Part shown: piece by piece, positions 719 through 1,760 of the stretch | How the letters are laid out: each line of letters opens with the position of its first letter | Position numbering within the stretch: the first letter of the stretch is position 1 | IMG/VR virus record: IMGVR_UViG_2724679544_000004 | DNA length: 6,788 nucleotides | From: a virus | Lineage: Duplodnaviria > Heunggongvirae > Uroviricota > Caudoviricetes | Reading direction: 5' to 3' (one strand) | Made by a program: the position numbers and the translations under genes | Notes under the pieces: model-generated | What the model was told of the DNA's origin: nothing | Databases searched by the model: none | Seen by the model: only the letters and a program-made list of their open reading frames with translations

Positions 719-977
719 GGTTCTTTCCACCATCTGAAAAATAATTCTTTAAAATACCTGACATGTAATACAGAAAAAACACAAAACCATACCTTAAATA
801 AAAACCTGATTATCAAGCAGATATGCATGGATAAACTACAAGACGAGATATAAACCACCCTGCATTTAAATAAACAATAAACAACATCAGAAAAATAATT
901 CTGCTCTATGGTTTAATTCAAAAATATCATTTATACTTTTCAGAACATCACCAGCAAGGCATAAACAAGGAAACTAA

Positions 978-1313
978 ATGAAGTGGATTGTGATTGATAC
1001 AGTTATCCAGCCATCATGCGGAATATCTTTTTCAGTCATATGGAGTAAAATAAAATTAATAATCTGGTATCAATCGGATGCTTTCTTACCTCCTGAAAGT
1101 ATATTTACACTGACTCACACAGGCATCATGCTCAATAACAAAGTGCTACCTGTAACCATTTACAACGTAGTACCATTCAATAAAACATTCTGGAATTTAA
1201 TCAAAAACAGCCAGGAATGCCCTACAAATACAGATAACGTATTGAATGAATGCTTTAATAACCGTTGCACTCTGCAAATATGTCCTTATGGACTAAAACA
1301 ACAAAGTCCATAA
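978..1313 (+). CDS. Hypothetical 111-aa protein encoded in an AT-rich island (moron-like cargo gene), unknown function
   Basis: 336-nt open frame in very AT-rich DNA, where stops should be frequent. AAGGA SD about 8 nt upstream of the ATG. Opposite orientation to the surrounding late operon. 6 of 13 Ile codons are AUA. Five Cys, mostly in the C-terminal half. No family recognised. Confidence 0.4.
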
Positions 1314-1330
1314 GGAGTTTACTCACATCT

Positions 1331-1369
1331 GACAAAATCAATATAAACAGCCCCTCCGGAGAGGGGCTG
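1331..1369 (-). terminator. Rho-independent terminator-like hairpin (9-bp perfect GC-rich stem, CGGA loop) with U-tract on the minus strand
   Basis: cagcccctc-cgga-gaggggctg at 1348-1369; on the minus strand it is followed by TTTATATTGATTTTGT. No U-tract on the plus side. Confidence 0.5.
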
Positions 1370-1760
1370 GAGAGTGGCGCTATGTGCCATTGCATGGTGC
1401 CGGGTGCCTCCCGGTGAATTCAGTACCAGCACCTGAATCCGCGATTATCCCATATACCTACTCGCTGATTGCCCCTCCGCACAGGGGGATTCACCATGCC
1501 AGTTTCTTTTAACAAACTCCCCGCAAACCAGACAACAGTCAACCGCCTGAATTGTGAAGTATTTAAAAATTTCTCCCGCTAACTGATACCCGGCTAACAG
1601 TCTGGCGTTTTCTTTTTCAGCAACGGGAAAGCAACAACCACCACACCCGCCACCAGCACACCGTCAGCCGGCACTGACATTATCCGGCTGCTGCAATGCC
1701 ATTCACAAAAACAGTAAGCAATCACTTTTTACCGTAACAGGTGATAATCCAGATATGTAT

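What the first reader, a model, noticed from the sequence alone, without database searches (positions are those of the whole stretch)
740..1375. AT-rich cargo island with an opposite-strand 111-aa ORF of unknown function at the stx-equivalent position
A strongly AT-rich block sits between Q/tRNAs and the holin, the slot where lambdoid phages carry stx, bor, lom, porins or defence genes. Its single long ORF (978-1313, plus strand) is antisense to the late operon, has a good SD, 5 Cys, and 46% AUA among its Ile codons. A strong hairpin terminator at 1331-1369 isolates it from late transcription coming from the right. No family is recognised, so it is a candidate novel virulence, exclusion or anti-phage factor.
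Basis: partly seen in the sequence, partly recalled or inferred. Interest (0 to 1): 0.6.

Follow-up and report, generated by a model that had tools for sequence, protein, structure and literature searches.

The report
Known RpoS-stabilising gene iraL in prophage
The "unknown" 111-aa ORF is iraL, an already characterised prophage-borne gene whose product blocks the adaptor RssB so that the stress sigma factor RpoS is not degraded, and the hairpin next to it is the terminator of a known prophage small RNA (STnc100), so the finding is real but ordinary.

Summary
Window 740-1375 is AT-rich (33.5% GC against 49% elsewhere). It holds one 111-codon ORF (978-1313, +) antisense to the late operon, with 5 Cys, 6 of 13 Ile codons as AUA and an AAGGA Shine-Dalgarno. 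A 9-bp G+C-rich hairpin lies at 1348-1369.

The interpretation "no family recognised, candidate novel factor" does not hold. The protein is 111/111 identical to IraL of uropathogenic E. coli CFT073. IraL is an experimentally characterised RssB anti-adaptor that stabilises RpoS in log phase (Hryckowian 2014, PMC4045071). The ORF passes the NCBIfam IraM model (162 bits, cutoff 121) and matches the solved IraM chain 8twd (E 9e-32). The mapped iraL mRNA 5' end falls at window 945. The hairpin is the 3' terminator of a full-length STnc100 sRNA (Rfam RF02076, 132 bits) at 1339-1528 on the minus strand, convergent with iraL.

The window is a whole contig of Shigella flexneri 3a BS1061, a prophage remnant bracketed by inverted IS600 copies. 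The only open point is that this allele has a 1-nt deletion in the -35-like element. The same variant is in one JJ1886 copy and in at least 166 complete E. coli genomes, and its expression is untested.

Novelty: already known. Interest: low.

The parts
978..1313 (+). iraL coding sequence (111 aa), an RssB anti-adaptor of the IraM/IraL/RssC family. The PmrD-like core is about residues 1-78. The C-terminal tail carries 4 of the 5 Cys (C81, C92, C97, C102) and an ICPYG motif.
   Evidence: 111/111 identical to CFT073 IraL WP_000871291.1. NCBIfam NF007393 162 bits against cutoff 121. PDB 8twd IraM residues 1-78, E 9e-32. 62% identical to K-12 IraM. dN/dS 0.10-0.16 against paralogues. The four tail Cys are invariant in the 4-sequence alignment.
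905..977 (+). iraL promoter and 33-nt 5' UTR: -35-like element around 911-916 (TTTA-AT, one base shorter than CFT073's TTTACA), -10 TATACT at 932-937, transcription start at 945, Shine-Dalgarno AAGGA at 967-971.
   Evidence: The 5' RACE end of CFT073 iraL mRNA, ACATCACCAGCAAGGCATAAACAAGGAAACCA (PMC4045071), matches window 945-976 with 1 mismatch. The alignment with CFT073 shows a 1-nt deletion (C) and G->A at -1. The variant is shared with one JJ1886 copy and with E275a. Hexamer assignments are my inference from the mapped start; the consensus scan did not pick this promoter.
734..904 (.). AT-rich intergenic region upstream of iraL, between it and the divergent DUF1737 stub. Presumed regulatory region of iraL.
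   Evidence: GC 0.285-0.305 in 200-nt windows. Nearly identical to CFT073 over the whole stretch. The paper reports >=96% conservation of the upstream region in all iraL-carrying genomes. No regulatory site was tested here.
1339..1528 (-). STnc100-family prophage sRNA gene, convergent with iraL. Its 3' end lies 26 nt from the iraL stop codon.
   Evidence: Rfam RF02076, 132.4 bits (gathering score 47), E 7e-30, model positions 1-206 of 206, not truncated. The homologous sequence follows stx2cB in phage 1717. The literature places STnc100 75 nt downstream of the stx2 operon (PMC12370729).
1339..1369 (-). Intrinsic terminator of STnc100: stem-loop 1348-1369 plus a U-run read on the minus strand.
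   Evidence: Terminator scan: minus strand only, 9 pairs, 7 G-C, loop 4, tail TTTATATTGA. Fold -20.8 kcal/mol, z -2.65. It forms the terminal helix of the STnc100 covariance model. The same hairpin follows the paralogue in phage 1717.

Best explanation
The ORF at 978-1313 is iraL, a prophage-borne moron gene. Its product binds the N-terminal receiver domain of the adaptor RssB. RssB then cannot hand the stress sigma factor RpoS to the ClpXP protease, so RpoS is stabilised, in CFT073 and S. sonnei already during exponential growth.

iraL is transcribed from its own sigma-70-type promoter (start at window 945), antisense to the phage late operon, so it can be expressed from a repressed or defective prophage. 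The adjacent hairpin is the intrinsic terminator of a separate, known prophage sRNA gene (STnc100, 1339-1528, minus strand). That terminator stops minus-strand transcripts before they run antisense into iraL.

Shown here: identity of the protein, family membership, position of the mapped start, sRNA model match, genomic context.
Shown in the literature for the identical protein: RssB binding and RpoS stabilisation.
Inferred: that this S. flexneri allele, with its 1-nt promoter deletion, is expressed, and that the terminator functions as one.
For: - Identity: 111/111 to CFT073 IraL, in the same prophage slot: Q, tRNAs, DUF3927, iraL antisense, DUF1737, holin.
- Family: NCBIfam IraM model 162 bits, cutoff 121; PDB 8twd IraM E 9e-32; 62% identity to K-12 IraM.
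- RefSeq names it 'anti-adapter protein IraM' in matching genomes; 2,221 of 5,426 complete E. coli genomes have a match to window 700-1400.
- DNA of 520-1760 is nearly identical to CFT073, including the mapped 5' end.
- Function of the identical protein: co-purifies with RssB, two-hybrid interaction with the RssB N-terminal domain only, deletion halves the RpoS half-life in log phase in CFT073 and lowers RpoS in S. sonnei, and the gene with 100 bp of upstream sequence raises RpoS in K-12 (PMC4045071).
- Purifying selection: dN/dS 0.10-0.16.
- IraM core fold and RssB contacts: PMC10844676. Of the contact residues it names, C14, F18, W30, I61, Y62 and P66 are conserved in IraL.
- STnc100. Terminator orientation.
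- iraL sits at the same position in isolated phages, and other genes replace it in mEp460_ev081.
Against: - Expression of this allele is untested. Compared with CFT073 it lacks one base in the best -35-like hexamer (TTTACA -> TTTA-A) and has G->A at -1. The IraL authors state that it is unknown whether the JJ1886 iraL2 copy, with its mutated predicted -35, is expressed. One of the two JJ1886 copies carries exactly the window's variant.
- The consensus promoter scan did not find the mapped promoter.
- The Pfam copy searched here gives no hit even for K-12 IraM.
- Four of the IraM contact residues differ in IraL (T13S, H63N, I64V, L75I), in line with the reported different binding mode.
- There is no canonical plus-strand terminator after iraL, because no U-run follows the stem on that strand.
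Confidence: 0.93

Rival explanations
1. The gene is an intact but silent or weakly expressed passenger. The 1-nt deletion in the -35-like element and the decay of the surrounding prophage (IS600 on both sides, truncated holin, deleted esterase gene) would mean that iraL contributes little to RpoS control in this S. flexneri strain.
For: Promoter deletion and -1 change relative to the functional CFT073 promoter. The authors say expression of the -35-mutated JJ1886 iraL2 copy is unknown. The prophage is clearly defective.
Against: The coding sequence is 100% intact and identical to the active protein. The exact promoter variant is kept in at least 166 complete E. coli genomes and in three independent S. 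flexneri 3a assemblies, which argues against a recent disabling lesion. iraL is enriched in Shigella and active in S. sonnei, although I did not determine the S. sonnei promoter type.
Confidence: 0.2
2. The ORF is a novel anti-phage, superinfection-exclusion or virulence effector unrelated to RpoS control.
For: It occupies a moron slot where lambdoid phages carry stx, bor, lom and defence genes. PHROGs lists its family (phrog_4407) as 'unknown function'. Pfam gives no hit.
Against: It is identical to a protein with a demonstrated biochemical partner and phenotype. No PADLOC model matches. The family has a solved complex with RssB. A second, moonlighting role cannot be excluded, but nothing points to one.
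Confidence: 0.03
3. It is the functional equivalent of K-12 IraM: induced by PhoP/PhoQ on Mg2+ starvation and binding both RssB domains, rather than the constitutive log-phase IraL type.
For: RefSeq and NCBIfam name it IraM. It shares 62% identity and the same core with K-12 IraM.
Against: Coding and upstream DNA are the iraL type, nearly identical to CFT073. The paper found no overlap between iraL and iraM matches, 67% nucleotide identity between them, different contexts and different RssB interaction patterns. I did not search the upstream region for a PhoP box.
Confidence: 0.04

Closest known systems
IraL of E. coli CFT073 (WP_000871291.1; Hryckowian et al. 2014, mBio, PMC4045071)
   Same: Protein 111/111 identical. 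Same prophage slot and orientation. Same 5' UTR apart from 1 base. Same downstream hairpin, STnc100 and DUF3927 neighbours.
   Different: Promoter allele: a 1-nt deletion in the -35-like hexamer and G->A at -1. The host is S. flexneri 3a, and the prophage is cut down to 6.7 kb between two IS600 copies. The tRNA set upstream also differs: Ile-CAU plus one Arg-UCU here, against Ile plus two Arg, with an IS200 nearby, in CFT073.
IraM of E. coli K-12 (b1160; PDB 8twd in complex with RssB)
   Same: Same family (NF007393). 62% identity, co-linear without gaps over 107 residues. PmrD-like core 1-78. Invariant C14, F18, W30, I61, Y62 and P66, and the 4-Cys/ICPYG tail.
   Different: IraM is induced by Mg2+ starvation (PMC10844676), via PhoP/PhoQ according to PMC10948607, and contacts both RssB domains. 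IraL acts in unstressed log phase and interacts only with the RssB N-terminal domain. Other differences are the chromosomal context next to e14, a 4-residue C-terminal extension (QQSP) in IraL, and contact residues T13S, H63N, I64V, L75I.
IraM-family paralogue of Stx2c/Stx2a-converting phages (e.g. phage 1717 ACI43140.1)
   Same: 75% amino-acid and 78% nucleotide identity. Same antisense placement beside the nanS-p-type esterase gene, and the same downstream hairpin and STnc100-like sequence.
   Different: 107 aa. It lies directly after stx2B. It is mostly unannotated or 'hypothetical' in phage records, and I found no experimental characterisation of it.
STnc100 sRNA (Rfam RF02076)
   Same: Full-length covariance-model match including the terminal terminator helix. 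Located in a lambdoid prophage downstream of the stx-type cargo slot, as reported.
   Different: No stx gene lies upstream here. The function of STnc100 is itself unresolved in the literature I read.
PmrD (PDB 4HN7), connector protein of PmrA/PmrB
   Same: The IraM core has the same unusual beta-barrel fold (PMC10844676). Precomputed Pfam annotation lists PF11183 PmrD for this very protein.
   Different: Different partner (a response regulator that acts as a protease adaptor) and different output. My own Pfam scan gave no PmrD hit.

Membership tests
IraM/IraL/RssC anti-adaptor family | Sequence passes the curated family model (NCBIfam NF007393) | tested here: met
   162 bits against a curated cutoff of 121, residues 1-110 on profile positions 1-113 of 114.
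IraM/IraL/RssC anti-adaptor family | Homology to the structurally solved RssB-binding core (IraM 1-78, PmrD-like beta-barrel) | tested here: met
   phmmer against the PDB: 8twd_A, E 9.1e-32, query 1-78 on chain 4-81, no gaps. The fold itself was not modelled here; it is implied by about 60% identity.
IraM/IraL/RssC anti-adaptor family | Conservation of the residues that contact RssB in the IraM-RssB crystal structure | tested here: inconclusive
   Of the residues named in PMC10844676, C14, F18, W30, I61, Y62 and P66 are conserved. T13S, H63N, I64V and L75I are conservative changes. IraL is reported to bind differently from IraM.
IraM/IraL/RssC anti-adaptor family | Binds RssB and stabilises RpoS against ClpXP | not testable with these tools
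   Shown experimentally for the identical protein from CFT073: co-purification, two-hybrid, RpoS half-life of about 5 min against 2.5 min (PMC4045071).
IraL subtype (as opposed to IraM) | >=95% identity to CFT073 iraL over the whole coding region, the criterion used in PMC4045071 | tested here: met
   Protein 100%. The coding DNA is identical in the three-way alignment.
IraL subtype (as opposed to IraM) | iraL-type promoter and upstream region, >=96% identical to CFT073 | tested here: met
   4 differences (3 substitutions and a 1-nt deletion) in the 245 nt upstream of the ATG. One of them is the 1-nt deletion in the -35-like hexamer, whose effect is unknown.
Phage moron (Hendrix/Juhala sense) | Composition different from the flanks, and presence/absence between otherwise related phages | tested here: met
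   GC 0.335 against 0.49. Present in vB_EcoS-640R1 and CFT073. Other genes replace it in mEp460_ev081, which matches the window only from 1391 rightwards.
Phage moron (Hendrix/Juhala sense) | Own promoter and own terminator | tested here: inconclusive
   Own promoter: the start is mapped in CFT073. Own terminator: the only hairpin downstream has its U-run on the other strand.
STnc100 sRNA (RF02076) | Score above Rfam's gathering threshold over the full model, ending in a Rho-independent terminator | tested here: met
   132.4 bits against 47, model 1-206 of 206. Terminator.
STnc100 sRNA (RF02076) | Expressed as a discrete small transcript | not testable with these tools
   Detected by RT-qPCR in STEC vesicles (PMC12370729). 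Nothing is known for this strain.
Anti-phage defence systems (PADLOC) | Match to any defence-protein model | tested here: not met
   0 families at E <= 0.01 for the ORF and for three neighbouring small ORFs.

The most novel reading that the evidence does not exclude
The convergent pair iraL and STnc100, which travel together from Stx2c phages to this Shigella remnant, is a functional unit. iraL has no plus-strand terminator, so its transcripts would read through the shared hairpin and become antisense to STnc100, and STnc100 read-through would become antisense to iraL. RpoS stabilisation and the sRNA's regulon would then be reciprocally coupled. A second, independent possibility is that the invariant four-Cys/ICPYG tail is a metal- or redox-sensing degron that sets anti-adaptor stability. 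That tail is dispensable for RssB binding and is proteolytically labile in IraM.
Probability: 0.08. Interest if true: 0.4.

Novelty: already known. Interest (0 to 1): 0.08.

Why it matters
It matters little as a discovery. iraL has been described since 2014, its family has a crystal structure with its target, and STnc100 is in Rfam.

The practical value lies in annotation. The gene escapes this copy of Pfam and is 'unknown function' in PHROGs, so sequence-only or Pfam-only screens will keep flagging it as a novel moron. A related paralogue right after stx2B is still unannotated in most Stx2c phage records.

Biologically, it is a reminder that a decayed, IS-bracketed prophage remnant in Shigella flexneri can retain a host-regulatory gene that rewires the general stress response. 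Whether the common promoter variant with the -35 deletion is active remains a small, directly testable question.

Tried and rejected
- Pfam scans at E <= 0.1 and E <= 10 gave no family for the ORF, nor for K-12 IraM or the phage 1717 paralogue. The precomputed gene table nevertheless lists PF11183 PmrD for this protein. I treat this as a library-version difference and rely on NCBIfam and the PDB.
- PADLOC: no hit, so the defence-gene idea was dropped.
- PHROGs: phrog_4407, 'unknown function', which is uninformative.
- The consensus promoter scan did not recover the experimentally mapped iraL promoter. It proposed 871-899 and 1029-1056 instead, at a count no higher than in shuffles (7 found against 5.0 +/- 2.2). 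I disregarded it.
- The hairpin as a terminator for iraL itself: rejected, because no U-run follows the stem on the plus strand.
- The hairpin as a stand-alone insulator: replaced by its membership in STnc100.
- AsxR (the anti-sRNA downstream of stx2B) was considered for 1339-1528, but Rfam assigns the region to STnc100, not to the AsxR family RF02703.
- Two 41/42-nt probes counted promoter alleles: 166 window-type against 285 CFT073-type genomes. Together they cover only about a third of the 1,429 genomes with the full module, so other alleles exist and no frequency claim is made.
- Python access to several fetched loci failed. I used the alignment tools and pasted sequences instead.
- Identity to a characterised protein made them unnecessary, and the alignment at hand was not eligible for the structure tool.

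Full report
**1. What is there**

The window is 6,788 bases. It is identical to the reverse complement of a whole draft contig, LAJW01000149.1. According to PMC4606844 that contig belongs to Shigella flexneri 3a strain BS1061, an stx-negative isolate from Haiti.

Its first and last ~60 bases are inverted copies of the IS600 terminus. In two complete S. flexneri 3a genomes (CP026098.1, CP054892.1) the same segment is flanked on both sides by IS3-family transposase genes.

Between the IS600 ends lies a fragment of a lambdoid prophage, with all phage genes on the minus strand. From right to left they are:
- relB and relE;
- hokD;
- a 92-aa ORF;
- a DUF968 protein;
- RusA;
- antiterminator Q (2622-3443);
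- a tR'-like terminator (2522-2541);
- two tRNAs (2403-2478 and 2225-2301);
- a 108-aa ORF;
- a 43-aa DUF3927 ORF;
- the block under study;
- a DUF1737 stub;
- a holin truncated by IS600.

**2. The observation**

- Composition: 740-1375 has 33.5% G+C against 49.2% for the rest of the window.
- ORF: the only long ORF is 978-1313 on the plus strand. It is 111 codons long, with 5 Cys and 6 AUA among 13 Ile codons. AAGGA lies six bases before the ATG.
- Hairpin: a 9-bp stem with 7 G-C pairs sits at 1348-1369.
- Not chance: an open frame of this length in such AT-rich DNA is unlikely by chance, about 2e-4 per start by my estimate. The frame is under purifying selection, with dN/dS 0.10-0.16 between three paralogues.

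**3. What the ORF is**

A megablast of 700-1400 against complete E. coli genomes found matches in 2,221 of 5,426 genomes, annotated 'anti-adapter protein IraM'.

Family and homology:
- The protein passes NCBIfam NF007393 (162 bits, cutoff 121).
- It matches the solved chain of IraM in complex with RssB (8twd, E 9e-32, residues 1-78).
- It is 62% identical to K-12 IraM.

Identity with IraL. It is 111/111 identical to WP_000871291.1 of uropathogenic E. coli CFT073. That gene sits in the potB prophage in the same arrangement: Q, tRNAs, DUF3927, the gene on the opposite strand, DUF1737, holin. It is iraL, described by Hryckowian et al. 2014 (PMC4045071).

What that paper shows:
- IraL co-purifies with RssB.
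- It interacts in a two-hybrid assay only with the RssB N-terminal domain.
- Deleting it halves the RpoS half-life in log phase in CFT073 and lowers RpoS in S. sonnei.
- The gene with 100 bp of upstream DNA raises log-phase RpoS in K-12.

The paper maps the mRNA 5' end to ACATCACCAGCAAGGCATAAACAAGGAAACCA. That corresponds to window 945-976 with one mismatch. The transcription start is therefore 945, TATACT at 932-937 is the likely -10, and the 5' UTR is 33 nt.

The structure paper on IraM (PMC10844676) describes a PmrD-like beta-barrel core (1-78) that occludes the sigma-S binding face of RssB. It also describes a proteolytically labile, flexible C-terminal tail.

**4. The hairpin**

But the hairpin is not a free-standing insulator. 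Rfam places a complete STnc100 sRNA (RF02076; 132.4 bits, gathering score 47, model 1-206 of 206) at 1339-1528 on the minus strand, and the hairpin is its terminal terminator helix.

STnc100 is a known prophage sRNA, reported 75 nt downstream of the stx2 operon in Stx2 phages (PMC12370729) and discussed as a relative of PasD (bioRxiv 10.64898/2026.05.13.724894). iraL and STnc100 therefore converge, with 26 nt between the iraL stop codon and the sRNA 3' end. iraL has no canonical terminator of its own on the plus strand.

**5. The slot**

In Stx2c-converting phage 1717 a 107-aa paralogue (75% identical) lies directly after stx2cB. It is followed by the same GCCCCTCCGGAGAGGGGC hairpin and STnc100-like sequence, and it is antisense beside the large nanS-p-type esterase gene. 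The position is therefore stx-adjacent rather than stx-equivalent.

The slot upstream of STnc100 takes stx in Stx phages. Here it holds the 108-aa and DUF3927 ORFs. iraL with its AT-rich upstream region is a separate moron on the holin side:
- it is present at the same place in isolated phages such as vB_EcoS-640R1;
- other genes replace it in mEp460_ev081, which matches the window only from 1391 rightwards.

**6. What remains uncertain**

The coding sequence and flanks are nearly identical to CFT073. The window, however, lacks one base in the best -35-like hexamer (GGTTTACATTC becomes GGTTTA-ATTC) and has G to A at -1.

This exact variant occurs in E. coli E275a, in one of the two JJ1886 copies and in all S. 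flexneri loci fetched. CFT073 and 1EC213 have the other form. A 41-nt probe of the window type finds 166 complete genomes, and the CFT073-type probe finds 285.

The IraL authors noted a mutated predicted -35 in the JJ1886 iraL2 copy and said its expression is unknown. The variant found here is probably that one, but I could not see their figure. So the protein's activity is established, while its expression in this strain is inferred.

**7. Mechanism and confidence**

Best explanation, confidence 0.93: an iraL moron expressed from its own promoter in a defective prophage. IraL sequesters RssB, and RpoS escapes ClpXP. STnc100's terminator shields iraL from minus-strand read-through in the lysogenic state. 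Q-modified polymerase would be expected to ignore that terminator during induction; this rests on general knowledge of lambdoid antitermination and was not tested.

Rivals:
- silent allele, 0.2. This concerns expression only and is compatible with the identification;
- novel defence or virulence factor, 0.03;
- IraM-type Mg2+ regulation, 0.04.

**8. Novelty**

Already known. The residual curiosities are the promoter allele, the convergent iraL/STnc100 arrangement, the invariant four-Cys tail, and the unannotated paralogue next to stx2c. These are modest follow-ups to an established system.

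Noticed in passing
window 1-60 and 6729-6788: The two ends of the window are inverted copies of the IS600 terminus (a 68-nt inverted repeat, 96% complementary). The window is a whole draft contig of S. flexneri 3a BS1061 that broke at these repeats. In complete S. flexneri 3a genomes the 6.7-kb prophage fragment is bracketed by full IS600-type transposase genes, a composite-transposon-like arrangement.
   Followed up: yes
window 43-222 (-): The class II holin gene is truncated at its 3' end by the IS600 insertion. 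The product ends ...[10 protein letters not shown] instead of continuing as in the 71-aa intact holin of the E. coli relatives. No lysozyme or Rz genes follow, so the prophage cannot lyse its host.
   Followed up: partly
window 533-718 (-) and 372-533 (-): The DUF1737 ORF is flagged in RefSeq relatives as a partial gene missing its C-terminus. In STEC relatives a 'SASA family carbohydrate esterase' is annotated under the match in place of the DUF1737 stub. The next 53-aa ORF matches only the extreme C-termini of long PHROG families (e.g. phrog_143, positions 582-632 of 634). Together they look like an internally deleted nanS-p-type esterase gene.
   Followed up: partly
window 1761-2087 (-): A 108-aa ORF between tRNA-Arg and the DUF3927 gene matches phrog_2873 end to end (E 1.6e-69, unknown function). 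It is intact in E. coli 1EC213 but is not annotated in the RefSeq records examined (CFT073, 1EC213). No Pfam, NCBIfam or PADLOC hit. It uses 6 AGA/AGG among 11 Arg codons, next to a tRNA-Arg(UCU) gene.
   Followed up: partly
window 1594-1725 (-): A 43-aa DUF3927 ORF (Pfam E 5.6e-26) matches phrog_1470, described as 'TciB-like inhibition of cell division or resistance to colicin'. It is another small moron, in the slot where Stx phages carry stx.
   Followed up: no
window 2403-2478 (-): ARAGORN calls this tRNA Met (anticodon CAT), but the identical sequence in E. coli 1EC213 is annotated tRNA-Ile in RefSeq. That would make it an ileZ-like tRNA-Ile2 whose modified CAU reads AUA. This fits the AUA-rich codon usage of iraL (6 of 13 Ile) and its paralogues (7 of 14, 8 of 18). 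The link is suggestive only.
   Followed up: partly
L005 (Stx2-converting phage 1717) 5016-5339; also 40 other Stx2a/Stx2c phage records: A third IraM-family paralogue (107 aa; 75% identical to IraL) lies immediately downstream of stx2B in Stx2c and some Stx2a phages. In most records it is unannotated or 'hypothetical', and I found no experimental work on it. If active, Stx2c lysogens would acquire an RssB anti-adaptor together with the toxin.
   Followed up: partly
window 911-916 and 944: The iraL promoter allele has a 1-nt deletion in the -35-like hexamer and G->A at -1 relative to CFT073. It is shared with one JJ1886 copy, with E275a and with the three other S. flexneri loci carrying this fragment (L006-L008). 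The exact 41-mer is in 166 complete E. coli genomes, against 285 for the CFT073 type.
   Followed up: partly
window 978-1313 (protein): Tool discrepancy. hmmscan against the Pfam copy here returns no family, even at E <= 10 and even for K-12 IraM. The precomputed gene table of the look-up of encoding contigs lists PF11183 (PmrD) without a weak mark for the same 111-aa product.
   Followed up: partly
window 5691-6444 (-): hokD (51 aa, HOK_GEF), relE (95 aa) and relB (79 aa) toxin-antitoxin genes sit at the right end of the fragment, as in the Qin prophage of K-12. The E. coli relatives that match 61-5860 lack the relBE part at this position, whereas phage PhiR42_1 matches 3827-6729 and includes RelE and RelB.
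   Followed up: no
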